This document shows positions 3,928 through 16,439 of a stretch of 20,939 bases of DNA, piece after piece. Source of the stretch: a virus (lineage: Duplodnaviria; Heunggongvirae; Uroviricota; Caudoviricetes); IMG/VR virus record IMGVR_UViG_3300046318_000589. One strand, given 5' to 3'. The stretch's first letter is position 1. Each line of letters starts with the position of its first letter. Under the pieces are notes generated by a model that was not told the DNA's origin, made no database searches, and saw only the letters and a list, made by a program, of their open reading frames with translations. The position numbers and the translations under genes are program-made.

Positions 3928-5133
3928 TTAGTCGTTCCAGTTATCGTAGGCAGATTCCCATTCGCCAGTTAGTCCATGAGAATCATATTCAGTTACTCTT
4001 TTTTCAAAAAAGTTTGAATGGTCAGAGCCGTTTACAATCCAATCAACCCACTCAATAGGGTTGGTTTTTTGTTTAAAGTTTGGTTTTAATCCGAGTTCTA
4101 TTAAGCGTCTGTCCGTGATAAATTTGACATAATCTTTAACTTCTTCTTTAGTTAAACCTTGTATAGTATAGTTCTTAAATGCTAAATCAATAAACTTTGA
4201 TTCCAATTCATAAACTTTTCTTGCCATTTCATAAATTTTCTTTTTAAATTCATCGTTTACAATATGAGGGTGTTCATTACAAAAAGTTCGGAATAATTTA
4301 GCAAGTCCATTCACATGATAATTTTCGTCCTTTTGAGACCATTCAACAACAGTACCCATTCCTTTCATTTTACCAAACCTTTGGAAGTTTAATAACATAG
4401 CAAATGATGCGAATAAAGTAACACCCTCATTAAATACAGATTTAGCTAAGGCTAATCCTAGCCCTTCAACAGTATTAGGATCAGAATCCAGCATAAAGTC
4501 AAGTTTATCGGTCATTTCAGAATATTCAAGAAATGTATGGTATTCGTCATCAGGTAATCCTAGAGTGTCATTAAGTAATGAATAAGCTGATGTATGTGTA
4601 CCCTCCCGAGTAGCAAAAGTTGATAGCATACTTCTAATTTCATTATTCTTAAATTTTGGAATAAATTTATCGAAATAAATACTACCCACTGCTACATCTG
4701 ATTGAGTAAATAATCGTAGAATGTTTACGATAAAATCTTTTTCATTATCTGACAGTTTACCTGATTTCCAGTCTAAAATATCGTCGGATAAATCAACTTC
4801 TCCTTCATGCCAGTGCATATTATTTTCATGGTTGGTTCTGATTTCATAAGCCCAATCAAATTTGAATGGTTTGTATGTTTTACTTGGACTTGTTGAAGAG
4901 GAATTATCAAAAGCAATATCATGTCTTTGTAATAAATCAGTATAACCACCAACTCTATAATTATCTATAAAAACTTGTGGTACTGTATTAACATGATTTT
5001 CAATATAAAAAAACTCTCTTTTAGTATCATCATCCAAAGATATTTCAGTATATTTTAATTGGTAGTTTTTTAACCAATCCTTAGCATACTTACAATATGG
5101 ACATTTTTTCTTTGTATAAATTACGATATTCAT
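3928..5133 (-). CDS. nrdB: Class Ia ribonucleotide reductase beta subunit with N-terminal glutaredoxin fusion
   Basis: N-terminal CPYC, TVPQVF and GGYTDL make up a Grx domain. These are followed by the R2 metal ligands FTQSD, REGTH, NEG and DENYH, the radical Tyr (SAY) and the C-terminal NFFEKRVTEY. Confidence 0.95.
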   Translation of the reverse strand: MNIVIYTKKKCPYCKYAKDWLKNYQLKYTEISLDDDTKREFFYIENHVNTVPQVFIDNYRVGGYTDLLQRHDIAFDNSSSTSPSKTYKPFKFDWAYEIRTNHENNMHWHEGEVDLSDDILDWKSGKLSDNEKDFIVNILRLFTQSDVAVGSIYFDKFIPKFKNNEIRSMLSTFATREGTHTSAYSLLNDTLGLPDDEYHTFLEYSEMTDKLDFMLDSDPNTVEGLGLALAKSVFNEGVTLFASFAMLLNFQRFGKMKGMGTVVEWSQKDENYHVNGLAKLFRTFCNEHPHIVNDEFKKKIYEMARKVYELESKFIDLAFKNYTIQGLTKEEVKDYVKFITDRRLIELGLKPNFKQKTNPIEWVDWIVNGSDHSNFFEKRVTEYDSHGLTGEWESAYDNWND

Positions 5134-5136
5134 TTA

Positions 5137-7866
5137 TTAACCCTCACACGCTTTACATTCATTATCTGTATTATCTTTATAATCCTTTAAAGAATTTCTT
5201 TCAACCTTTTCACTTAACTTATCTACTTTATTAGACGATTCAGTACGCAAGTAGTATAATCCCTTACACCCAGTTTCCCACGCTTTAAAATGAACGTATC
5301 CCAATGTTTTTTTATCACATTTAGGGGGGAAATAAAGATTTATGGATTGTCCTTGACAAAGATATTTCTGCCTATCAGACGCTAAATAAACGAGGTCTAT
5401 GGGGTCTATTTCTTTGAATGTTTTAAATACTTGCTTTTCATCATGCGATAAGAAATCAAGATTTTCAACTGATCCTTTATCTAAAATAATGTGTTTCCAA
5501 ACTTCATCGGTATTTTTACCATATTTTTCTAGTAATTGCTCAAGTATTTTATTCTTAATTAAATGACTGCCAACACGGCTTCTATGTGTGAACGCATTAG
5601 CATTCATTGGTTCAATGGAGGGTGTAGTACCAGTTATCATTGAGGAATTTGCATTGGGTGCAATCGCCAATAGAAAGGCGTTTCTTAAGCCATTACCAAC
5701 CATATCAGGTGCTTCCCCTCGTTCTTTGCCAAGTTTTAACGATTGGTTTACCGCTTTTAATTTAATATTACTGAATATTTCATTATTAATATCTTTTGCG
5801 TCTTTGTATGTGAACGGTATCATTTTTTTCTGCAAATAAGCATGAAATCCCATAGCACCCAATCCAAGAGAGCGTTCCATTGAAGCACTATATTTAGCTT
5901 TATATAGTTCATTGGGAGCATTATCAATAAAGTATTGTAATACATTATCAAGGAATGTTATTAAATCCTCCACAATATTGGTATCTTTCCACTCATCATA
6001 TAATTCTATATTTAAGGAGGATAAACAACAAACGGCAGTACGTTCAGAGTTAGTTGGTAAGTGGACTTCGATACACTGACCTAATAAAACACCATTAAAC
6101 ATACCCATATTCCGTTTTTGCTCTGTGAAACAATATGTTTTATCAAATCTATCGGTAATTTCAATAGATTTTATTTTAATAAACCTGCTTTGGTTAGTAA
6201 TTAAATGTATTTTATTACTTATTTTTAACCTCTTGGGATTGTACCCTAATTTTAATAACTGTTGAATACCATTATGAGAAACGTGCATTAAATGACTGTC
6301 TTTACAGTTATATAACTTATTTTCGCCTGTACCGTCATTTTTAGGCATCATATATTTACCAGCTTTTCTTTTAAAAGTTATTTTTGAATACACTCCTAAA
6401 GTTTGTAGCAATAATTTAACTTTTTGTAAATTACTATGTTCTATTGAGCATATCTGTATCATTTGTGTATGGGGATTATTAATAACGCAACCATCAGCAT
6501 CAAAATAACCTTCTAGCCAAGATATAGCCTCGCTTACATTCATACCATTTGGAACGTAATCTTTATCCCATTGAGGATGTACCCACATTTTTCTGTCATA
6601 TTTATCATAATCAGAATTAACTCGCCCCACTAAATATGGTATAACAGATTCTTTCGGTCTATACACAAAAGATCTATTGTATCCCCTATTACCATCACCA
6701 CTATAAAATCCTCTGCTATAAGCTTCATTATCAAGTTCTGTTCTTTGTATAATATCACTTGGTAAATTAAATTTTATTAATCTATCCCCCTCATTTAAAT
6801 CTATAGCATCGACCTTTTTAACACCCTTATTATCACCTGTAACAATATAAAATTTATGTTCTTTTGTGCAATCAATATAACTATCATCGTCAAACGTAAC
6901 TTTTATCAATTCTGAATTTTCAGATGTTTGTCGAATTGTGGTTAAAGACCATTCCTCCCCATTCCATACATGAACATCTTGATTTTCTAAAGACGCAATT
7001 TCCTTATAACCATATTCTTTTGTTAATATTAAAGTTTCAGGTGCTACGCACAAATTAGAACCGTTTATTCTCAAGCCTTTATCTTTCATTTCTTGTGGTA
7101 ATGCTTTATTGGCAGTATCAATAAAATGTAAGTATGGCTCACCTGTTCTGTATCGTGTTTCTAATATTTTCTGCCATAATTTTCTAGCGGATACTGTTTC
7201 CTTAACTTCTTTACTGTGTGGACAAATTAAATCAAAATCTTCATTATTTTTAACGGCGTTCATAAAATCATCGCTGATATTAATGCCATGATGTAGGTTT
7301 AAATTTTTACGATTAATATCCCCCCCTGTGGGTGTTCGCATTGTAATAAATTCCATAATATCAGAATTATTAACATTTAAATAAGCGGCGTAACTACCTT
7401 TTCGTGTTGATGCTTGTGTATATGCAACCATATCAGAATCAATAGTATGGAGAAATGGCATAATACCAGGAGATTTTGAACTTTGTGAACGTACTTTACT
7501 CCAATGTCCACCAACACCCCCACCTTTAACCGATAACCATCTTGTTTCTGTGGAATGTTCTATAATATCATGGAGTGTATCTTCCACAAAGTTTAAATAA
7601 CATGATATTGGTAATGCCTTTGGTTTTTGTCCATATATAGGTGCATTTGATAATATTGGGGAGGAAAACATAAACCAATTTTTTGACGCATAATCGTATA
7701 TTCTTTGTGCTAATTCAAAATCACCATAGCAATAAGCCTTTGATGCTCTTGCATAACACTCTTGGGGGGATTTCTCTTCGCTTGTCATATAATAATCTTT
7801 TAGGAGGACTTTTGATTGTTCCGTTAAAAGATTATCTCTCGTTAAATCTATTTTTATTTCTGTCAT
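5137..7866 (-). CDS. nrdA: Class Ia ribonucleotide reductase alpha subunit (no ATP-cone), intein-containing; spliced length 584 aa
   Basis: PISCY, GGGVG, RKGSYAAY, GEPY, SNL|CIE (after splicing), IAPNANSS, QGQSIN, GLYYLR and C-terminal CKAC. The N-terminus is too short for an ATP-cone. Confidence 0.95.
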   Translation of the reverse strand: MTEIKIDLTRDNLLTEQSKVLLKDYYMTSEEKSPQECYARASKAYCYGDFELAQRIYDYASKNWFMFSSPILSNAPIYGQKPKALPISCYLNFVEDTLHDIIEHSTETRWLSVKGGGVGGHWSKVRSQSSKSPGIMPFLHTIDSDMVAYTQASTRKGSYAAYLNVNNSDIMEFITMRTPTGGDINRKNLNLHHGINISDDFMNAVKNNEDFDLICPHSKEVKETVSARKLWQKILETRYRTGEPYLHFIDTANKALPQEMKDKGLRINGSNLCVAPETLILTKEYGYKEIASLENQDVHVWNGEEWSLTTIRQTSENSELIKVTFDDDSYIDCTKEHKFYIVTGDNKGVKKVDAIDLNEGDRLIKFNLPSDIIQRTELDNEAYSRGFYSGDGNRGYNRSFVYRPKESVIPYLVGRVNSDYDKYDRKMWVHPQWDKDYVPNGMNVSEAISWLEGYFDADGCVINNPHTQMIQICSIEHSNLQKVKLLLQTLGVYSKITFKRKAGKYMMPKNDGTGENKLYNCKDSHLMHVSHNGIQQLLKLGYNPKRLKISNKIHLITNQSRFIKIKSIEITDRFDKTYCFTEQKRNMGMFNGVLLGQCIEVHLPTNSERTAVCCLSSLNIELYDEWKDTNIVEDLITFLDNVLQYFIDNAPNELYKAKYSASMERSLGLGAMGFHAYLQKKMIPFTYKDAKDINNEIFSNIKLKAVNQSLKLGKERGEAPDMVGNGLRNAFLLAIAPNANSSMITGTTPSIEPMNANAFTHRSRVGSHLIKNKILEQLLEKYGKNTDEVWKHIILDKGSVENLDFLSHDEKQVFKTFKEIDPIDLVYLASDRQKYLCQGQSINLYFPPKCDKKTLGYVHFKAWETGCKGLYYLRTESSNKVDKLSEKVERNSLKDYKDNTDNECKACEG
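6076..7050 (-). mobile_element. 325-aa intein with LAGLIDADG homing endonuclease in nrdA
   Basis: Begins CVAPETLIL after SNL. Block B is IDCTKEHKF, and the two LAGLIDADG helices are RGFYSGDG and EGYFDADG. It ends FNGVLLGQ followed by Cys+1. Confidence 0.93.
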
Positions 7867-7910
7867 TTTTTACTGTATCTTTTTTAATTGTTAGCTAATA
7901 ATTAGATTAT

Positions 7911-7939
7911 AATCTAACATAATAGAGATAATTTGTCAA
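7911..7939 (-). promoter_or_regulatory. Sigma70-type promoter for nrdAB, overlapped by a 16-bp palindrome (7902-7917)
   Basis: TTGACA-N14-TGT-TAGATT; palindrome TTAGATTATAATCTAA. Confidence 0.65.
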
Positions 7940-7948
7940 TTTAAATTA

Positions 7949-8362
7949 TTAATTTTCCGTAAAGATTTCGTTAATAAAATCATAAACAATAAAAGGTTTT
8001 TTCATTTCCCTTAACCTTTTAATGTTTGCTGTACTACCAGGAGAATCACCGTCATAAATAACAAACCCAAAATCACATTTTTCAGTCATGTCTGAATCTT
8101 TCATGGCGTAAATATTACTATCAGAAACTTTAACTGTTGGAAAATTACCATAATTATTTCTTATTTTACCTGCATAATAAACAGTTACATCTCTATAACC
8201 CTTTCCATGAAAATAATGTTGAATTAATAAATCCGCCCCATAACAATCCCCAACAATTACAGATAATTTTTTATTAATAATGTTTTCAAGGCGATTAATT
8301 ACATTATCATCGAGATGTTTTAGACTTCTTGAACCGCTTATAAAAACAGTTTTATTCTTCAT
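7949..8362 (-). CDS. SLOG-superfamily (YspA-related) nucleotide-binding protein
   Basis: FISGSR, VGDCYGAD, KDSDM, IYDGDSPGS and NIKRL follow the YspA-like SLOG pattern; GAGGA RBS. Confidence 0.65.
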   Translation of the reverse strand: MKNKTVFISGSRSLKHLDDNVINRLENIINKKLSVIVGDCYGADLLIQHYFHGKGYRDVTVYYAGKIRNNYGNFPTVKVSDSNIYAMKDSDMTEKCDFGFVIYDGDSPGSTANIKRLREMKKPFIVYDFINEIFTEN

Positions 8363-8603
8363 TTTTTCCTCTTATATAGCTTGGTGTTTGTCTTGGTACA
8401 CCTTTTTTTATGAATGATTGGTATAGATTATAATGGTGTTTATCAGTAATACTATTTGATATGGACGAAACAAATGACGCAAACTGTGCTGTGTCTTGAT
8501 ATTGGGCGTAGAAATTATCAATAACATTGGGATTATATGTATCGCTATAATCCTGTTTACCGTTACTTATATCCCAAAAATGAGAAAGAGCTGTTTTAGC
8601 CAT
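8352..8603 (-). CDS. gp62: Clamp loader small subunit (gp62-like), short form; probable start ATG 8603
   Basis: YNPNVIDNFYAQYQDT...HYNLYQSFIKKG..R resembles the gp62 core of marine T4-like phages. The ATG overlaps the 3' end of gp44. Confidence 0.6.
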   Translation of the reverse strand: MAKTALSHFWDISNGKQDYSDTYNPNVIDNFYAQYQDTAQFASFVSSISNSITDKHHYNLYQSFIKKGVPRQTPSYIRGKNEE

Positions 8604-11158: not shown

Positions 11159-11416
11159 TCATGTTTTCATCTTCCAATAAACTTTTATGGTAGGTATATT
11201 ACAACTAATCCTGTCATAAATTTCAATGCCTAAATTATTAAAAATAACCCATTTATCGGTTGGAAGTATGGTGCGTGAAAAGTCCACCTCAATATCGTAA
11301 GATATTAAAGGCATATTATTTACCATGTCTATAACATCGCTGATGGTTTGACTAGATCCAAACTTTTCAACAAGCTTAGATATAAGTATATCCTTATCAA
11401 TAAGATGTTCAATCAT
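11159..11416 (-). CDS. Hypothetical protein
   Basis: Start overlaps the gp46 stop, suggesting translational coupling; no recognisable motif. Confidence 0.55.
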   Translation of the reverse strand: MIEHLIDKDILISKLVEKFGSSQTISDVIDMVNNMPLISYDIEVDFSRTILPTDKWVIFNNLGIEIYDRISCNIPTIKVYWKMKT

Positions 11417-13409
11417 TCTCTGATTCCAAATGCGTGAAGTTATTTTTCATAGTAAAAGTCAATACTTTATCAAAAAACCCTTGATATTTATTAAAGTTAT
11501 GATCAATAACAATCGTAATAATATCTTGGTGGTCGTTTTTGATAAAATCAAATATATTTTCTATACCATCATCGTCTATATGGTCTAGCATATCATCTAA
11601 AAATAACACATTAAAAGAGGCGTAATTTTTAGCTTTGGCAATATCACGAAACGCAAACATAATGGATAAATCTACCCGTTTACGTTGTCCTATAGATAGG
11701 TTTTCATAAGAACATTCCAATCTATAGTCTTTTTTTAGAACCTCATCGAAGTTCTTATCCATTTCAAAATACAGGAAAAGATTTAATTTGTCAAGATAAT
11801 AATTTATTCTTTCGTTCAAAAAAGGAATATACATATCAATAATATTTGCCTTAATACCCTTATCTTCCAAAGCAGATATAACAACATTCTTATGATTTAA
11901 ATCAATATTTAAAGTATCAAGAACTTGTCCTAAGGCTAATAATTCTTCCTCATCTTTTTTAATACTGTTTTCTAAATCGTCAAATCCTTTGCTTTGATAT
12001 TCCCCCAAAGTCTTTTTCTTCATGTCAATATTAAGATTAATCTCATAAAGATAATCTTTTGCACACAAGACGCTTAATCTTTCTTTCAATACATGAATAG
12101 CGTTATCTTTAATACTATCCAAATCTTTCTCTTTCAATATACTGATACTATTAGTAATATTGGTGATTTGTTGTTTCAGATTTTGGATGGTGTTTTTTCT
12201 TTGACTATAAGCATCAATATCATTTTTAAGAATGTTAAGATTTTCCTTATGTTTTTCCAATAAGGTTTCATAAGATAGTATGGAATCTCTTTTTATTTTA
12301 TAAGAGCTTAATAGGTTTTCTCTTTCGATAGTTAAGTGTGTTTTTAAACTGTCATCAGATAGCTTATTTTTACACATAGGACAGGTGGAACTTGTAGATA
12401 GGTTGTCTAGTTGCTCTTTTATTTTCTTGCCGTTCTGCGTCAATATATTTAAGTCTAATTGCATCTTTGCGTGGGATTGTATCATATTGTTGAGGGTAGT
12501 ATTATCATCCCTTAATTTATCATTTAGATTTTTATATTCTCCCTCGTTAAATGATAAGTTTTCCAACTGATCTTGCAAATCTTGCAATACAATTTCATTA
12601 TCTCTAATCTGTTGATTTAGTTTGTCCTGTTCATCTTTGTTGGATTGATTCGTTAGGAAGGATATTTCTTTTTCTAAATTTGATATATCCAATATTTTTT
12701 TATCATTAAATTTTGGTATTTCTATATCAGTTAATCGTATTATATCATTTTTAAGCGTTTCTATGGCTTGTTTATTTTCGTTAATACTTTTAACTAATCT
12801 TTCTTTATCCCTGTATATGTAGGTTTTTTTAGTGTTAAAATGTATTTCTTGTTCGGATATTTTTTTCTTTAATTCCTTTAAATCTTCCTTGGCAATTTTT
12901 TGCATTTCTGAAAACAATTCTATATCGAGGATATTTTCGATAAAGGTGCGTCTTTCATTTTTTGATAGATTTAGAAAGGCTACATAATTTACAAAGCTGA
13001 TTGCCAATAATTGATAGAATGTTTTATAATCACACCCAATAATATCTGTTATTTTTTTATCTAGGATATTTTTATGCGAATCCTCCTCTAGGAAAACACC
13101 GTCAATACTAATTTTTAAAATATCAGGTTTCATTCCTCTTTCTATATAAATTTGTTTCCCATTAACTAAAAGATTTAATTTTACAAGCAATTCTTTTTTA
13201 TTAATAAAATTTATAATATCAGTTTTTTTCACTGAGCGATCAATTCTACCAAATAATGCAAAAGAAAGGGCAGATAGCACAGTTGATTTGCCTGTACCAT
13301 TCTCCCCTGTGATTAATGCGGAAGAATTAAAATCAATAGTTATTGGATTATTCCCCACCGATAAGATATTTTGGTATGTAATTGATATTAATTTTACATT
13401 ATGGTTCAT
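11409..13409 (-). CDS. gp46: Rad50/SbcC-like recombination ATPase (gp46)
   Basis: Walker A GENGTGKS, Q-loop YQL, coiled coil with zinc hook CPMC (12372-12383), signature LSIGQ, Walker B LFLDD and H-loop IDH. Confidence 0.93.
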   Translation of the reverse strand: MNHNVKLISITYQNILSVGNNPITIDFNSSALITGENGTGKSTVLSALSFALFGRIDRSVKKTDIINFINKKELLVKLNLLVNGKQIYIERGMKPDILKISIDGVFLEEDSHKNILDKKITDIIGCDYKTFYQLLAISFVNYVAFLNLSKNERRTFIENILDIELFSEMQKIAKEDLKELKKKISEQEIHFNTKKTYIYRDKERLVKSINENKQAIETLKNDIIRLTDIEIPKFNDKKILDISNLEKEISFLTNQSNKDEQDKLNQQIRDNEIVLQDLQDQLENLSFNEGEYKNLNDKLRDDNTTLNNMIQSHAKMQLDLNILTQNGKKIKEQLDNLSTSSTCPMCKNKLSDDSLKTHLTIERENLLSSYKIKRDSILSYETLLEKHKENLNILKNDIDAYSQRKNTIQNLKQQITNITNSISILKEKDLDSIKDNAIHVLKERLSVLCAKDYLYEINLNIDMKKKTLGEYQSKGFDDLENSIKKDEEELLALGQVLDTLNIDLNHKNVVISALEDKGIKANIIDMYIPFLNERINYYLDKLNLFLYFEMDKNFDEVLKKDYRLECSYENLSIGQRKRVDLSIMFAFRDIAKAKNYASFNVLFLDDMLDHIDDDGIENIFDFIKNDHQDIITIVIDHNFNKYQGFFDKVLTFTMKNNFTHLESEND

Positions 13410-13444
13410 TTTAATCCTGACGTTTGTATTTTTTTCTTTAATAA

Positions 13445-13479
13445 TAAAAAAAGAACAAGATTTTTACTTCTTGTTCTTT
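13445..13479 (-). terminator. Intrinsic terminator of the Ro60 cassette
   Basis: Stem AAGAACAAGA/TCTTGTTCTT (13451-13460 and 13469-13478) followed by a U-tract on the minus strand, just after the Ro60 stop. Confidence 0.75.
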
Positions 13480-13482
13480 AAG

Positions 13483-13511
13483 ATATTATCATAAAATAAT
13501 TTTTTAGTCAA
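13483..13511 (-). promoter_or_regulatory. Probable promoter for gp46, initiating inside the terminator hairpin
   Basis: TTGACT-N14-TGA-TAATAT. The predicted +1 (~13476) removes part of the terminator 5' arm. Confidence 0.5.
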
Positions 13512-15027
13512 TAGATTTTTCATATTCCTCAATGTAATCAATAATCTTATCGGAGAACCCATTAATATGAATCCAATTTCCATTATATCCGACACCGTTT
13601 TTATTGGTGGAAACATTTATCATGTAGGATTTTTTACACGTTGGTTGTGGTACGCTATCATTACTTTGTTCATCTGTAATAACAATAAGTCTATCAATAT
13701 CAAGATTATTAATTTCACCAATAGATTTTCCTAAATAGGTACTTTCGTTTCTATGTTTACAAGCTTTCATAAGTTTAAAACCTTGCAGATTTTTCGATAA
13801 ACGGCGTGTAATCTCTCCATTAACCTTATCAATAATTCTTTCTATGTCATAATTAATTCGATTTATGTACCCATATAAAGAAAATAATTCTTTTAATATA
13901 TCACTTTTTAATGCAGTAGCCTCTTTATCGGTTGCGGATTTTAAGAATATTTTATCAACATCAATTTCATTGTATCCAATAGTTTCTATAATAATATTTA
14001 CTGATTCAATAAATCCTTCATAAGTAATATATTTATTTCTTTCATCTCCAAATATTCTAACTTCTAAATCATCAAATTTTTCACGGGCAATCATTGCTAA
14101 TCCCCCAGCATTTTTCTCCTCACTACCCAGCATAGAACCACTAACATCAACTAATAGTAAAGTTTTACCGTACAGTTTCTCTTTATTAGAGAATAACTCA
14201 ATAAATTTTCTCTCTAAGTCATACTCAAATTGTGGAGTAATATCGTAAGCTTTAATAAAATTGATCGGTAAAAGTTTTGGGTCTTGTATTTGTGAAATTG
14301 CCTTACTAATACCATCATACCCAACAGTTTCCATGTTGCGTAGATTTCGCAGTGTTGCCAAACCACCTAACTGTTTATTATCTAATAAATCTTGCCACAC
14401 AGCACGTTTTTCTTCAGTGGTTTTGCACGCTGAATATCTAACTTCCCATGTGTTTGGTGTAGATAATGTATCAGTAACTATTTTTTTGAATAATTCTTTT
14501 TCAATATCGTTTTTAGGTTTTGGGTGGGTAAGGTTTATAATATCAAAAATATTGTATTCTTTTTTAGAGCCTTTGTATTTAGAGAATTGATATTCATTGA
14601 ACTTAGAAAAACAATCTGCAATCCCTCTAAGTAATCCTCGTGTAAATTTCTTTTTACTATCATCTCTACGATATATAGCTAGAAGTTCCCCCAAATCGTC
14701 CAAGCGATTTACTACTTGAGGAACAATCTTTCTTATTGGATAACCGTTCTCCGATAACAAAGAAATCAAATAGAGAGGAACGTGCCTTAATTTCATAGTA
14801 TGTTTTGCTTCAATGGCAACCTCTATTACAATTTCAGGATCAATATGCTTTACTAAATCTTTAATTCTATCTGCAACGGAAACACCAGATTCATAGAAAT
14901 TGTTTTCCCATAACATGCAGGACATGACTGTACGGCGTAATTGTTGCACATAATTAATTTTTACAGCTTTACCACCATTTTCAGTGAAAATAGTGGGGTA
15001 TTTAATTTTTTTATTTAAAGATGACAT
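13504..15027 (-). CDS. rsr: Ro60/TROVE-domain RNA-binding protein with vWA (MIDAS) domain
   Basis: LRRTVMSCMLWENNFYESG, KLRHVPL, FNEYQFSKY, LTHPKP, TPNTWEV and LGGLATLRNLRNM (TROVE). DVSGS...STYLG...ITDEQ form the MIDAS, followed by YMINV, GVGY and INGFSD. Y RNAs lie directly upstream. Confidence 0.93.
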   Translation of the reverse strand: MSSLNKKIKYPTIFTENGGKAVKINYVQQLRRTVMSCMLWENNFYESGVSVADRIKDLVKHIDPEIVIEVAIEAKHTMKLRHVPLYLISLLSENGYPIRKIVPQVVNRLDDLGELLAIYRRDDSKKKFTRGLLRGIADCFSKFNEYQFSKYKGSKKEYNIFDIINLTHPKPKNDIEKELFKKIVTDTLSTPNTWEVRYSACKTTEEKRAVWQDLLDNKQLGGLATLRNLRNMETVGYDGISKAISQIQDPKLLPINFIKAYDITPQFEYDLERKFIELFSNKEKLYGKTLLLVDVSGSMLGSEEKNAGGLAMIAREKFDDLEVRIFGDERNKYITYEGFIESVNIIIETIGYNEIDVDKIFLKSATDKEATALKSDILKELFSLYGYINRINYDIERIIDKVNGEITRRLSKNLQGFKLMKACKHRNESTYLGKSIGEINNLDIDRLIVITDEQSNDSVPQPTCKKSYMINVSTNKNGVGYNGNWIHINGFSDKIIDYIEEYEKSID

Positions 15028-15063
15028 TTTTTAACTTTCCGAGAAATGCTACGTTGCTAATAA

Positions 15064-15214
15064 TTTATTAGAAATAGAGAAAATAAAACACAGTCTAAAA
15101 TGCTGACGCTCTACCCCTGAGCTACATCCCCATAAAAATAGAGAGGATGGTATCGAACCATCGTCCTTCAGCGAGCCATAAGTATCTGTGTTTATCGCAA
15201 CTACTTCTAATAAA
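15064..15214 (-). ncRNA. yrlA: YrlA-like Y RNA (circularly permuted tRNA mimic)
   Basis: Minus strand order: basal stem TTTATTAGAAGTAG/CTATTTCTAATAAA; AAACACAG/CTGTGTTT; anticodon-stem equivalent GCTGA/TCAGC; variable loop AGGAC; T-arm GATGG-TTCGATA-CCATC; acceptor stem closed by a U-loop; D-arm TA-GCTC-AGGGGTA-GAGC. Confidence 0.88.
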
Positions 15215-15268
15215 AGTACACCCCCTGCACAAGAAATAAAATTTAGGAATGTACTTTTATTAGAAGTA
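15202..15268. repeat. Perfect 19-bp inverted repeat between the two Y RNAs
   Basis: TACTTCTAATAAAAGTACA (15202-15220) and TGTACTTTTATTAGAAGTA (15250-15268). Confidence 0.9.
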
Positions 15269-15351
15269 TCTTCAGGGAAAGTTAGAAACGGAAATGCACC
15301 AAGGTGCGATATAGAAAAATATAAGTAACCGTTTCTTTCGCCACTGAAGAT
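15268..15351 (-). ncRNA. Second Y RNA (YrlB-like, no tRNA module)
   Basis: Terminal stem ATCTTCAG/CTGAAGAT. The 5' strand GGCGAAAG fits the bacterial Ro-binding motif GNCGAAN0-1G with a bulged C. It also has AAACGG/CCGTTT, a pyrimidine-rich loop and a GCAC-CTTG-GTGC hairpin. The 5' end coincides with the predicted +1. Confidence 0.8.
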
Positions 15352-15357
15352 GTTATT

Positions 15358-15386
15358 ATAATAACAAATTATTTATCTTATGTCAA
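15358..15386 (-). promoter_or_regulatory. Sigma70-type promoter of the Y RNA-Ro60 cassette
   Basis: TTGACA-N14-TGT-TATTAT, 3 nt after the gp47 stop; +1 ~15351. Confidence 0.8.
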
Positions 15387-15389
15387 CAA

Positions 15390-16439
15390 CTATTTTGTCA
15401 TTGATGAAGATTTTTCATAGTAATGTAATAAATATCTATAAACTATCTCATTATTAATACCATTCACTTCGATTTTCTTTGAGTAATCCTGAATAATATC
15501 AATGACAGATTTTTGGGGAGCATCCATGCTGTATTGTAAATCAATATCTCTCTTTATTTTATTTTCATTTTCATAGATAATAACACTTAGGGGCTTCATT
15601 TCTCGTATCATTTCTAAACAACTTTCAACGGTCTTATCATCAACACCAAGTGCAACCTTCACATAAACCTTTTTATTAAAACAATCAACTAATTGAAAAT
15701 CATTGTCAATAGTAATATCCACCATGGTATTAACGCCGTGATGATGTTGTTCCAATACATGATTAACCGTATCAAGAAATCCTATCTTTTTAGAATCGTT
15801 CCTATCGTCCTTTTTATGCTGTATTAAGCATCCTAAATATACAATATTGCCAATGGTAGAACCATAATGAATATGCCCTGATATAACGTTTTTGAAGTGT
15901 TTAAATTCAGTGGTGGATATGCCTTTTGATAAGTATGTATCATTGGGGTGTTGTTTAAATCCACCAAATTCAAAATGTCCAATGCAATATTCCATCTTGG
16001 TATTTTTAACCATATCCATGATATTTTCTCTATTATCTTCCGTTATCCATGGAACGAATAATATGTTATCTTTTTCTAAAGGTTCATCAACAATAGTTAT
16101 TCTATCGGAATTGAACATATCATTAAAAATATGCAGGGAATTTACCTTATTAGTATTTTTATAATACACATCGTGATTACCCGTAATCATAATAATACTA
16201 AACTCTTTATACTGCGATAAGAAACTATCCAATAAGTTTTTAATGAATAATACGGATTTCATGTCGGGGGAAGTTCTGCTTTCAAAAATATCCCCCAAAA
16301 ATATAATCGTATCAGCCCCCTTATCAAACATAAGAGGAACTACTTTATCATATATGATTTTTCTAAAAGCCTCATGGTAAAAATCAGAATTACCTTTATG
16401 GAAGTCTATGTGAGTATCTGGAATCAGAATCGTTTTCAT
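15390..16439 (-). CDS. gp47: Mre11/SbcD-like nuclease (gp47)
   Basis: Metallophosphoesterase motifs DTH, GDIFE, GNHD, GHFE and GHIH. Confidence 0.93.
   Translation of the reverse strand: MKTILIPDTHIDFHKGNSDFYHEAFRKIIYDKVVPLMFDKGADTIIFLGDIFESRTSPDMKSVLFIKNLLDSFLSQYKEFSIIMITGNHDVYYKNTNKVNSLHIFNDMFNSDRITIVDEPLEKDNILFVPWITEDNRENIMDMVKNTKMEYCIGHFEFGGFKQHPNDTYLSKGISTTEFKHFKNVISGHIHYGSTIGNIVYLGCLIQHKKDDRNDSKKIGFLDTVNHVLEQHHHGVNTMVDITIDNDFQLVDCFNKKVYVKVALGVDDKTVESCLEMIREMKPLSVIIYENENKIKRDIDLQYSMDAPQKSVIDIIQDYSKKIEVNGINNEIVYRYLLHYYEKSSSMTK

What the first reader, a model, noticed from the sequence alone, without database searches (positions are those of the whole stretch)
13445..15386. Autonomous phage Ro60 / dual Y RNA cassette inserted between gp47 and gp46
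Seen: promoter, Y RNA 1, hairpin, YrlA-like tRNA mimic, Ro60 and terminator, followed by a restart promoter for gp46. The cassette splits two genes that are normally neighbours; no rtcB is present in the window. Established: bacterial Rsr/Y RNA complexes tether PNPase for structured-RNA decay and are often linked to RNA repair; a few phages are known to encode them, with unclear function. Inference: an early-expressed RNP that redirects host RNA decay or decoys tRNA-targeting defences such as anticodon nucleases.
Basis: partly seen in the sequence, partly recalled or inferred. Interest (0 to 1): 0.85.

Follow-up and report, generated by a model that had tools for sequence, protein, structure and literature searches.

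The report
Phage Ro60 gene with two Y RNAs
A divergent freshwater T4-like phage carries, between its Mre11-like and Rad50-like recombination genes, a self-contained unit of one Ro60 RNA-binding protein and two small Y RNAs (one a tRNA look-alike); this is a real but already known kind of phage RNA-protein particle whose role in infection is still unsettled.

Summary
On the minus strand, 15386-13440, lie a near-consensus sigma-70 promoter, a short Y RNA (Y1, 15352-15267), a long hairpin (15268-15202), a YrlA-type tRNA-mimic Y RNA (Y2, 15209-15069), a 507-aa Ro60 (TROVE + vWA) gene (15027-13504) and an intrinsic terminator. The unit sits between gp47 (Mre11-like) and gp46 (Rad50-like).

A covariance model built only from Y RNA modules of other phage loci ranks Y1 (E 9e-8) and Y2 (E 0.003) as the two best hits in the whole window. 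Rfam YrlA matches Y2 at E 2e-4, below its gathering score. The predicted protein structure matches only Ro60 structures, best the Thermus phage phiLo Ro60.

A relative (L004) has the cassette at the same gp47/gp46 site. Its Ro60 is as diverged (57%) as its flanking genes (55%, 50%), so the cassette is an old resident. Distant T4-like phages have gp47 and gp46 adjacent and no Ro60.

The kind is known: Y RNAs beside phage Ro60 genes (2014), phiLo Ro60/Yrl1/Yrl2 binding host PNPase (2025), and a Ro60-like counter-defence gene in phage Bas63. This is a new member, with a lineage-specific 79-aa insert in the vWA domain. The anticodon-nuclease decoy idea is weak, because Y2 has no anticodon loop.

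The parts
15358..15386 (-). Sigma-70-type promoter: TTGACA, 17-nt spacer, TG-extended TATTAT. The predicted start is about 15351-15352, at the first base of Y RNA 1.
   Evidence: 11 of 12 matches with TG. Sequence read.
15267..15352 (-). Y RNA 1, YrlB-like (no tRNA module). It has an 8-bp basal stem, a 5' loop UGGCGAA that matches GNCGAAN0-1G as GGCGAAAG, a 7-8 bp inner helix, the motif GUUACUU, and a U-rich 3' loop.
   Evidence: R2, a model built without window sequence, gives 38.2 bits, E 9.2e-8, full-length match. The minimum-energy fold shows this architecture, z -4.85. The orthologue L004:1417-1490 keeps the helices through compensatory changes.
15202..15268 (-). Long near-perfect hairpin (18 perfect bp plus about 4 more, loop about 20 nt) with no U tail. 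Its 3' arm overlaps the 5' strand of the Y2 basal stem. It is a candidate RNase III processing site that would separate Y1 from Y2 (inference).
   Evidence: Fold. Found as a hairpin by chance miRNA-model matches. Absent from the relative L004.
15069..15209 (-). Y RNA 2, YrlA-type circularly permuted tRNA mimic. Its parts are: a 9-bp basal stem; a 5' loop UUGCGAU; an inner helix; an anticodon-like stem at 15172-15168 / 15106-15102; a T arm at 15162-15146 (GGUUCGAUACC); a 7-bp acceptor-like stem closed by UUUU at 15144-15127; and a D arm at 15122-15108.
   Evidence: Rfam YrlA 32.3 bits, E 1.9e-4. R2 21.2 bits, E 0.0028. T-arm and D-arm pairs covary across 5 modules. Fold.
15039..15053 (-). Short 5'-UTR element CG-UAGCAUUUCU-CGG abutting the Shine-Dalgarno GGAAAG (15040-15035). 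It is conserved in L004 and resembles the two strands of the Y RNA internal loop joined in one small hairpin. It may be a Ro60 autoregulatory site (speculative).
   Evidence: conserved only between the window and L004; the other loci have plain AAAGGAG leaders.
13504..15027 (-). Ro60 orthologue, 507 aa: a TROVE/HEAT ring plus a vWA domain with an intact MIDAS site (D294, S296, S298, T430, D452).
   Evidence: 6584 homologues; invariant columns; AF2 pLDDT 83.7; Foldseek: 9KOP E 1.1e-16; 1YVP, 2NVO.
13783..14019 (-). Lineage-specific in-frame insertion of about 79 aa (residues about 337-415) in the vWA domain. It is predicted helical at low confidence and matches no Pfam family.
   Evidence: Absent from all aligned homologues. 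Kept in frame with residue-level conservation in the 79%-identical P0004. pLDDT 42-60. No Pfam hit.
13440..13479 (-). Intrinsic terminator: 11-bp stem, 8-nt loop, T-rich tail.
13483..13511 (-). Weak promoter-like site (TTGACT-17-TAATAT, with TG) overlapping the end of the Ro60 ORF. Its predicted start lies inside the 5' arm of the terminator. It may restart transcription for gp46.
   Evidence: 9 of 12 matches, not above chance.
15390..16439 (-). gp47 (Mre11/SbcD-like nuclease), the upstream neighbour.
   Evidence: Metallophos; phrog_100 E 7e-48.
11409..13409 (-). gp46 (Rad50/SbcC-like ATPase), the downstream neighbour.
   Evidence: phrog_77 E 1e-108.

Best explanation
This is an early-expressed phage Ro60-Y RNA ribonucleoprotein module.

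Shown:
- The cassette encodes a full Ro60 orthologue (TROVE ring plus a vWA domain with an intact MIDAS site).
- Upstream on the same strand lie two RNAs with the Y RNA architecture found next to Ro60 genes in other phages.
- Y2 carries a tRNA elbow (T arm, D arm, closed acceptor-like stem) but no anticodon loop.
- The unit has its own near-consensus host-type promoter and its own terminator.
- It has been inherited together with gp47 and gp46 in this phage lineage.

Inferred:
- Host RNA polymerase makes one Y1-hairpin-Y2-Ro60 transcript.
- The long hairpin is cut (RNase III-like), which frees Y1 and lets the Y2 basal stem form.
- Ro60 binds the conserved internal loop and helix of each Y RNA.
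- The RNA module, above all the tRNA-like one, tethers the particle to a host 3'-to-5' exoribonuclease, most likely PNPase. This would change which structured RNAs are degraded during infection, as shown in vitro for Thermus phage phiLo and in vivo for Deinococcus and Salmonella Rsr.

I put identity as a Ro60 / Y RNA cassette at about 0.95 and the PNPase-tethering mechanism at about 0.45.
For: - Protein: TROVE and phrog_850 matches. The nearest solved structure is the phage phiLo Ro60. The top 13 Foldseek hits are all Ro60. MIDAS residues are invariant across 60 homologues. The ORF is intact in contigs of four freshwater metagenome runs.
- RNAs: model R2 was built from 11 modules of other phage loci; 97.8% of cells pair against 63% in shuffles, and 15 of 17 pairs show double changes. 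R2 ranks Y1 and Y2 first and second in the window.
- Specificity of R2: it finds modules only beside Ro60 genes in two cultured phages and none in six T4-like control loci.
- Y2: Rfam YrlA hits at the equivalent place in the window, L004 and L007. The T and D arms covary.
- Motif: the GNCGAAN0-1G motif of Chen et al. 2014 (PMC4201824) is present in Y1.
- Promoter and terminator.
- Same locus in L004, with matching divergence.
- Mechanism by precedent: phiLo Ro60 with Yrl1/Yrl2 binds host PNPase and reduces its activity (PMC12135203).
Against: - No expression, binding or PNPase data exist for this phage, and its host is unknown.
- Y2 scores below the Rfam gathering threshold.
- The Y2 5' loop reads UGCGAU rather than GNCGAA.
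- The hairpin is absent from the relative L004, so processing there must differ.
- The pair counts come from an alignment fitted to the model, which favours the structure.
- The one genetic result for a phage Ro60-like gene (Bas63 gp130) points to counter-defence, not RNA decay.
Confidence: 0.55

Rival explanations
1. Counter-defence particle. The Ro60-Y RNA complex, or the tRNA-elbow RNA alone, blocks or distracts a host anti-phage system. Candidates are a ppl-type system or a nuclease that recognises the tRNA body rather than the anticodon loop.
For: - The Ro60-like gp130 of Bas63 was identified and validated by complementation as a counter to ppl (bioRxiv 10.1101/2024.10.10.617714).
- The host-type promoter predicts early expression.
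- The T and D loops needed for a tRNA elbow are kept.
- The lineage-specific 79-aa insert in the vWA protein-interaction domain could be a new partner-binding surface.
Against: - No defence system or host is known for this phage.
- Y2 lacks an anticodon loop, so it cannot be a substrate decoy for PrrC, RloC or colicin-type anticodon nucleases.
- The Bas63 result is a single preprint with no mechanism.
Confidence: 0.25
2. RNA repair or tRNA quality-control helper. The particle presents damaged or misfolded tRNA or rRNA to repair or trimming enzymes, working with RNA repair genes encoded elsewhere in the phage genome.
For: - In other phages Ro60 sits inside tRNA gene clusters.
- In L007 an RtcB ligase lies 2 kb downstream.
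- In Salmonella, rsr-yrlBA is co-transcribed with rtcBA (PMC7790460, as listed).
- Earlier unchecked notes of this scan report a Pnkp-like kinase-phosphoesterase and an Rnl2 ligase elsewhere in this genome.
Against: - Neither RtcB nor any tRNA gene lies in this window.
- The repair genes named in the notes could not be checked here.
- Here the cassette sits in the replication/recombination cluster, not in a tRNA cluster.
Confidence: 0.15
3. Decaying or neutral passenger. The cassette is a leftover of an old acquisition and no longer matters to the phage.
For: The JGI contig L003 carries three clustered substitutions that create a TAA stop inside the insert, so that annotation splits the gene into 351 + 88 aa.
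Against: - Contigs from four other runs carry the intact allele, with no differences over the 2 kb laid.
- Ro60 is conserved at the same level as the core genes gp47 and gp46.
- Both Y RNAs keep their helices through compensatory changes.
- The promoter is near consensus.
Confidence: 0.04

Closest known systems
Thermus phage phiLo Ro60 with Yrl1 and Yrl2 (PDB 9KOP, 9L5Y; PMC12135203)
   Same: A phage-encoded Ro60 with two Y RNA-like genes directly upstream on the same strand. It is the best match by sequence among solved structures (E 9e-12) and by fold (E 1e-16). A CGA-containing internal loop is flanked by two helices.
   Different: Only about 20% identical. The host is a thermophile and the phage is not T4-like. 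The phiLo protein has no insert in its vWA domain. A tRNA-like module was not described for Yrl1 or Yrl2 in the passages I read. The window's Ro60 belongs to a shorter subfamily of about 430 aa, plus the 79-aa insert.
Bacterial YrlA / YrlB with Rsr (Salmonella, Mycobacterium smegmatis; Chen et al. 2014, PMC4201824; Rfam RF02553)
   Same: - One tRNA-like Y RNA plus one hairpin-type Y RNA.
- Both are encoded within 2 kb upstream of Ro60 on the same strand and are probably cut from one precursor, as in M. smegmatis.
- The GNCGAA-type motif lies near the 5' end.
- The tRNA layout is permuted: T arm, then a closed acceptor stem, then the D arm.
- The acceptor-like stem is 7 bp, as in M. smegmatis YrlA.
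   Different: - Below the Rfam gathering score (32 against 69 bits).
- The Y2 motif is degenerate (UGCGAU).
- A strongly conserved GUUACUU follows the inner helix in this phage group.
- There is no rtcBA next to it.
- It uses a host-type constitutive promoter rather than sigma-54/RtcR control.
Bas63 gp130, a Ro60-like counter to the ppl defence system (bioRxiv 10.1101/2024.10.10.617714)
   Same: A phage Ro60-fold protein that probably works with nearby tRNA-like RNAs. It is the only phage Ro60-like gene with a genetic phenotype.
   Different: Its sequence relationship to the window protein was not tested here. The Bas63 gene lies next to a tRNA array, whereas the window's gene lies between gp47 and gp46.
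Small ORFs between genes 47 and 46 of T4-type phages (two ORFs in Escherichia phage JoYop, one in Prochlorococcus phage P-HM1)
   Same: The same intergenic slot in the gp55-gp47-gp46-gp45 cluster is used for accessory genes.
   Different: Those are one or two small overlapping ORFs of 70-90 aa with no promoter, RNA genes or terminator of their own. Here the slot holds a 1.95-kb transcription unit.

Membership tests
Ro60 / TROVE proteins (Rsr) | TROVE domain recognised by a curated profile | tested here: met
   Pfam PF05731, 45.4 bits against a cut-off of 23. phrog_850 E 2.5e-27 over residues 15-503.
Ro60 / TROVE proteins (Rsr) | C-terminal vWA domain with the MIDAS residues DxSxS...T...D | tested here: met
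   D294, S296, S298, T430 and D452 are invariant columns in a 60-sequence alignment. The model shows the beta-alpha-beta pattern.
Ro60 / TROVE proteins (Rsr) | Helical-repeat ring plus vWA fold shared with solved Ro60 structures | tested here: met
   AF2 model pLDDT 83.7, pTM 0.78. Foldseek ranks 1-13 are all Ro60, TM 0.51-0.62, E 1e-16 to 3e-9.
Ro60 / TROVE proteins (Rsr) | Binds Y RNA and misfolded RNA | not testable with these tools
   Needs RIP or EMSA.
YrlA (Rfam RF02553) | Score at or above the Rfam gathering threshold (69 bits) | tested here: not met
   32.3 bits, E 1.9e-4 in a 3-kb search. No hit at gathering level.
YrlA (Rfam RF02553) | tRNA-like module: T arm with a GGUUCGAnnCC-type loop, D arm, closed acceptor-like stem, and an anticodon-like stem leading into the Ro-binding helix | tested here: met
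   Fold. The Rfam alignment covers model positions 1-114. T-arm and D-arm pairs show compensatory changes across 5 modules.
YrlA (Rfam RF02553) | Encoded within 2 kb of a Ro60 gene on the same strand (criterion of Chen et al. 2014) | tested here: met
   Y2 ends 42 nt upstream of the Ro60 start codon, on the same strand.
Bacterial/phage Y RNAs in general | GNCGAAN0-1G motif near the 5' end (Chen et al. 2014) | tested here: met
   Y1 has GGCGAAAG, an exact match. Y2 has UGCGAU, a degenerate form. The L004 modules have AGCGAU.
Bacterial/phage Y RNAs in general | 5' and 3' ends pair in a stem interrupted by a conserved internal loop, and the helices are kept through covariation | tested here: met
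   For the 11 modules from other loci, 97.8% of cells pair and 15 of 17 pairs show double changes; slid controls give 40-44%. Both window RNAs match this model over its full length.
RYPER (Ro60 - Y RNA - PNPase) complex | Y RNA tethers Ro60 to PNPase | not testable with these tools
   The host is unknown and no binding test was run. Precedent only (PMC12135203).
rsr-yrlBA-rtcBA RNA repair operon | RtcB and/or RtcA encoded next to rsr | tested here: not met
   No window ORF of 200 aa or more matches RtcB. A different phage locus, L007, does have RtcB 2 kb downstream.

The most novel reading that the evidence does not exclude
In this T4-like lineage the Ro60 particle has been re-tooled as a stand-alone early counter-defence or host-takeover device. 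The 79-aa helical insert in the vWA domain would be a new docking surface for a host protein. The tRNA-elbow RNA would act as bait for a tRNA-recognising host factor. The small Y-loop-like hairpin on the ribosome-binding site would let free Ro60 repress its own translation, keeping protein and Y RNA in balance.
Probability: 0.15. Interest if true: 0.6.

Novelty: new member of a known kind. Interest (0 to 1): 0.4.

Why it matters
Ro60-Y RNA particles are conserved from bacteria to humans, where Ro60 is a lupus and Sjogren autoantigen. What they do in phages is still open.

- This cassette is compact and self-contained (1.95 kb from promoter to terminator). It could be moved as a unit into E. 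coli to test RNA binding, PNPase capture and counter-defence.
- It shows that such particles also live in T4-like phages, in the replication/recombination cluster rather than in a tRNA array.
- The covariance model built here finds unannotated Y RNA arrays beside Ro60 genes of cultured phages (Rhizobium phage RHph_TM30, Microcystis phage Mvi-JY20). Those arrays could be annotated and studied in culturable systems.

Tried and rejected
- **Intron or mobile insert inside Ro60.** The 79-aa extra segment lies where a JGI contig has a stop codon, so I considered a group I intron. I rejected this for three reasons: the segment is in frame and conserved at residue level in the 79%-identical P0004; Rfam finds no intron, even at E up to 10; and no junction with a 5' exon ending in U and an intron ending in G preserves the frame (reading).
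- **Rfam at gathering thresholds and ARAGORN.** Neither finds anything in the window.
- **A simple two-helix geometry scan.** It is not discriminating in this AT-rich DNA. About 0.4% of random positions reach a perfect score, and two unrelated sites on the plus strand do as well. I replaced it with covariance models.
- **MAFFT alignments of the modules.** They misplace the basal stems. Only a two-sequence seed (A10) was usable.
- **Model R1 (two-sequence seed).** It did not reach the window at E up to 1.
- **Model R2 with default filters.** It gave only a partial Y1 match at E 0.26. The full matches needed the filters off.
- **Whole-genome searches for RtcB.** Not possible: no genome or record is held for the window or for L003.
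- **IMG/VR searches.** A scan with gp46 found no close relatives of this phage. With a gp46 alignment, the relatives found were at most about 28% identical over the full length.
- **INPHARED.** It has no DNA-level relative, and the nearest cultured gp46 is about 28% identical.
- **Expression.** No RNA holder is listed among the public runs. Expression is therefore untested.
- **Pfam on the insert alone.** No family matched.
Full report
**What is there**

All genes of the window run on the minus strand in the order typical of T4-like phages. They are: a gp55-like late sigma factor (17644-16982), a 95-aa ORF, gp47/Mre11-like (16439-15390), the cassette, gp46/Rad50-like (13409-11409), the sliding clamp, the clamp loader, and ribonucleotide reductase genes.

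Directly after the gp47 stop codon comes TTGACA-17-TATTAT with an upstream TG (15386-15358; 11 of 12 matches). The Ro60 start codon is 330 nt further on, at 15027, and the stretch between has no ORF. The 507-aa ORF (15027-13504) is followed by an 11-bp-stem terminator with a T run (13479-13440). gp46 starts at 13409.

**The protein**

- Pfam TROVE scores 45 bits against a cut-off of 23. PHROG 850 ('RNA-binding protein') matches over residues 15-503.
- More than 6500 homologues were found, and the named ones are Ro60/TROVE proteins.
- By sequence, the only solved structures matched are the Thermus phage phiLo Ro60 entries 9KOP and 9L5Y (E 9e-12).
- An AlphaFold2 model from a 60-sequence alignment has pLDDT 83.7. 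Its 13 significant Foldseek hits in the PDB are all Ro60: phiLo, Xenopus, human and Deinococcus.
- The MIDAS residues of the vWA domain are invariant.

Compared with every homologue except its nearest relative, the protein has about 79 extra residues (about 337-415) between the second beta strand of the vWA domain and the following helix. The extra segment is not an intron. In P0004 (79% identical) it is present, in frame, ungapped and conserved at the residue level. It is predicted helical at low confidence and matches no Pfam family.

The JGI contig from which a near-identical copy was fetched (L003) differs from the window at only three clustered positions, 13989, 13976 and 13972. One of these creates a TAA stop, which is why that annotation splits the gene into 351 + 88 aa. 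Contigs of four freshwater metagenome runs match the window exactly across the 2 kb laid. The intact allele is therefore the one these assemblies carry.

**The RNAs**

I collected Ro60 loci from other phage-like contigs (L001, L002, L004-L007, L009, L011). Upstream of Ro60 they all carry 1 to 4 copies of one module. The module has five parts:
- a basal stem of 8 or more bp;
- a 7-nt 5' loop of the type U-R-G-C-G-A-W;
- an inner helix of 7-8 bp;
- the near-invariant GUUACUU;
- on the way back, the inner helix, a U-rich 8-10 nt loop and the basal stem.

The 5' loop corresponds to the GNCGAAN0-1G motif that Chen et al. (PMC4201824) proposed as the Rsr recognition site. Some modules carry a tRNA-like insert and others only a small hairpin. 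This matches the YrlA / YrlB pairs described in that paper.

From a two-sequence seed I built a covariance model (R1). I searched only the other loci with it and rebuilt the model from the 11 hits, giving R2. On that alignment 97.8% of cells pair, against 63% in shuffles and 40-44% when the partners are slid. Fifteen of 17 pairs show changes on both sides. The caveat is that the alignment is fitted to the model.

R2 contains no window sequence. Run over the whole window on both strands with filters off, its two best hits are full-length matches:
- 15352-15267 (38.2 bits, E 9e-8);
- 15209-15069 (21.2 bits, E 0.003).

Everything else is above E 0.1.

As a specificity check, R2 finds five modules in the unannotated gap upstream of the TROVE gene of Rhizobium phage RHph_TM30. 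It finds two just after the Ro60 gene of Microcystis phage Mvi-JY20. It finds none in six T4-like gp47-gp46 loci that lack Ro60.

Independently, Rfam's YrlA model matches Y2 at E 1.9e-4, and it matches the equivalent RNAs of L004 and L007 at similar values. All three are below the gathering score.

Y2 folds into a permuted tRNA:
- an anticodon-like stem GCUGA/UCAGC that opens into the Ro-binding helix;
- a T arm with GGUUCGAUACC;
- a 7-bp acceptor-like stem closed by UUUU;
- a D arm GCUC-AGGGGUA-GAGC.

The T and D stems covary across five modules. ARAGORN finds no true tRNA in the window.

Between Y1 and Y2 lies a hairpin of about 22 bp with no U tail. Its 3' arm overlaps the 5' strand of the Y2 basal stem, so the two structures exclude each other. 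Cleavage of the hairpin by an RNase III-type enzyme would both separate Y1 and allow Y2 to close. This is inference; the relative L004 has a third Y module there instead.

**Context and history**

L004, an ENA freshwater-type scaffold, has this order: gp47, a 68-aa ORF, 435 nt holding three Y modules, Ro60, a 137-aa ORF, a Dam-like methylase, and gp46. Between the window and L004, gp47, Ro60 and gp46 are 55%, 57% and 50% identical. The cassette's G+C content (30.8%) equals the window's (30.5%). The cassette was therefore already at this site in the common ancestor of these two phages.

In T4-type coliphage JoYop two small ORFs lie between genes 47 and 46. In cyanophage P-HM1 there is one, and in phage C48C1 the two genes overlap. 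Of 24 more distant loci from IMG/VR, 16 show both gp47 and gp46, and in these the two genes are next to each other. None of the 24 has Ro60.

The nearest cultured gp46 is about 28% identical, so the phage belongs to a poorly sampled freshwater lineage.

In several other phages Ro60 lies in or next to a tRNA gene cluster (L001, L007, RHph_TM30, Mvi-JY20). In L007 it lies 2 kb from RtcB. Here it has no tRNA or RtcB neighbour.

**What is known**

- Chen et al. 2014 reported YrlA-like RNAs next to Ro60 in 254 bacteria and 22 phages.
- A 2025 paper solved the Thermus phage phiLo Ro60 structure. It identified two Y RNA-like genes upstream of the gene and showed that the particle binds host PNPase and slows it in vitro (PMC12135203).
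- A 2024 preprint found that the Ro60-like gp130 of phage Bas63 counters the ppl defence system.
- A Listeria phage study proposed that very abundant early RNAs near an Rsr-like gene are Y RNAs (PMC12282133).
- Eighty-one deposited phage records encode a homologue of the window protein.

The cassette is therefore a new member of a known kind. Its own features are the T4-like host genome and the gp47/gp46 site, the vWA insert, the strongly conserved GUUACUU, and a short conserved 5'-UTR hairpin next to the ribosome-binding site that looks like a collapsed Y RNA internal loop.

**Mechanism**

The most likely reading is an early Ro60-Y RNA particle that captures a host 3' exoribonuclease, most likely PNPase, and so reshapes structured-RNA decay. 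I give that about 0.45. A counter-defence role gets about 0.25 and an RNA repair or tRNA quality-control role about 0.15. A decoy for anticodon nucleases is unlikely because Y2 has no anticodon loop. Nothing about expression or binding could be tested here.

Noticed in passing
window 13972-13989 (inside the Ro60 insert); L003:11032-11049: The JGI source contig L003 is identical to the window over 2 kb except for three substitutions within 18 nt. One of them makes a TAA stop, and the JGI annotation splits the gene into 351 + 88 aa. Contigs from four other freshwater runs carry the intact allele.
   Followed up: yes
window 15039-15053 and L004:1792-1807: A short element (C)CG-UAGCA-(A/U)U(U)CU-CGG abuts the Shine-Dalgarno of Ro60 and is conserved between two phages whose proteins are only about 55% identical. 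It resembles the two strands of the Y RNA internal loop fused into one hairpin. It may be a Ro60 autoregulatory operator.
   Followed up: partly
L015 (Rhizobium phage RHph_TM30) 2765-3727; L016 (Microcystis phage Mvi-JY20) 3889-4105: Model R2 finds five unannotated Y RNA modules upstream of the TROVE gene of RHph_TM30 and two directly downstream of the Ro60 gene of Mvi-JY20. Both genes lie inside tRNA gene clusters.
   Followed up: partly
L007:3317-3851, 7187-8404: A phage-like contig has four tandem Y RNA modules upstream of Ro60. Several tRNA genes, a Fic-domain gene and an RtcB RNA ligase lie within 3 kb of the Ro60 gene.
   Followed up: partly
L005:5001-5081: The called Ro60 ORF of this NCBI contig (P0008) has a 27-residue N-terminal extension that is really the second Y RNA module read as protein. 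The conserved start (MSSLN) is at 5082.
   Followed up: yes
window 5137-7866 (-): The ribonucleotide reductase large subunit is interrupted by an intein with a LAGLIDADG homing-endonuclease domain. The neighbouring small subunit (3928-5133) is fused to an N-terminal glutaredoxin.
   Followed up: no
Model R2 gives only chance-level scores there (E 1.6 and 3.4), so it is not a Y RNA.
   Followed up: partly
L004:3100-4310: In the relative, the gp47/gp46 slot also holds a 137-aa ORF and a Dam-like DNA methyltransferase downstream of Ro60. The slot therefore accumulates accessory genes in this lineage.
   Followed up: no
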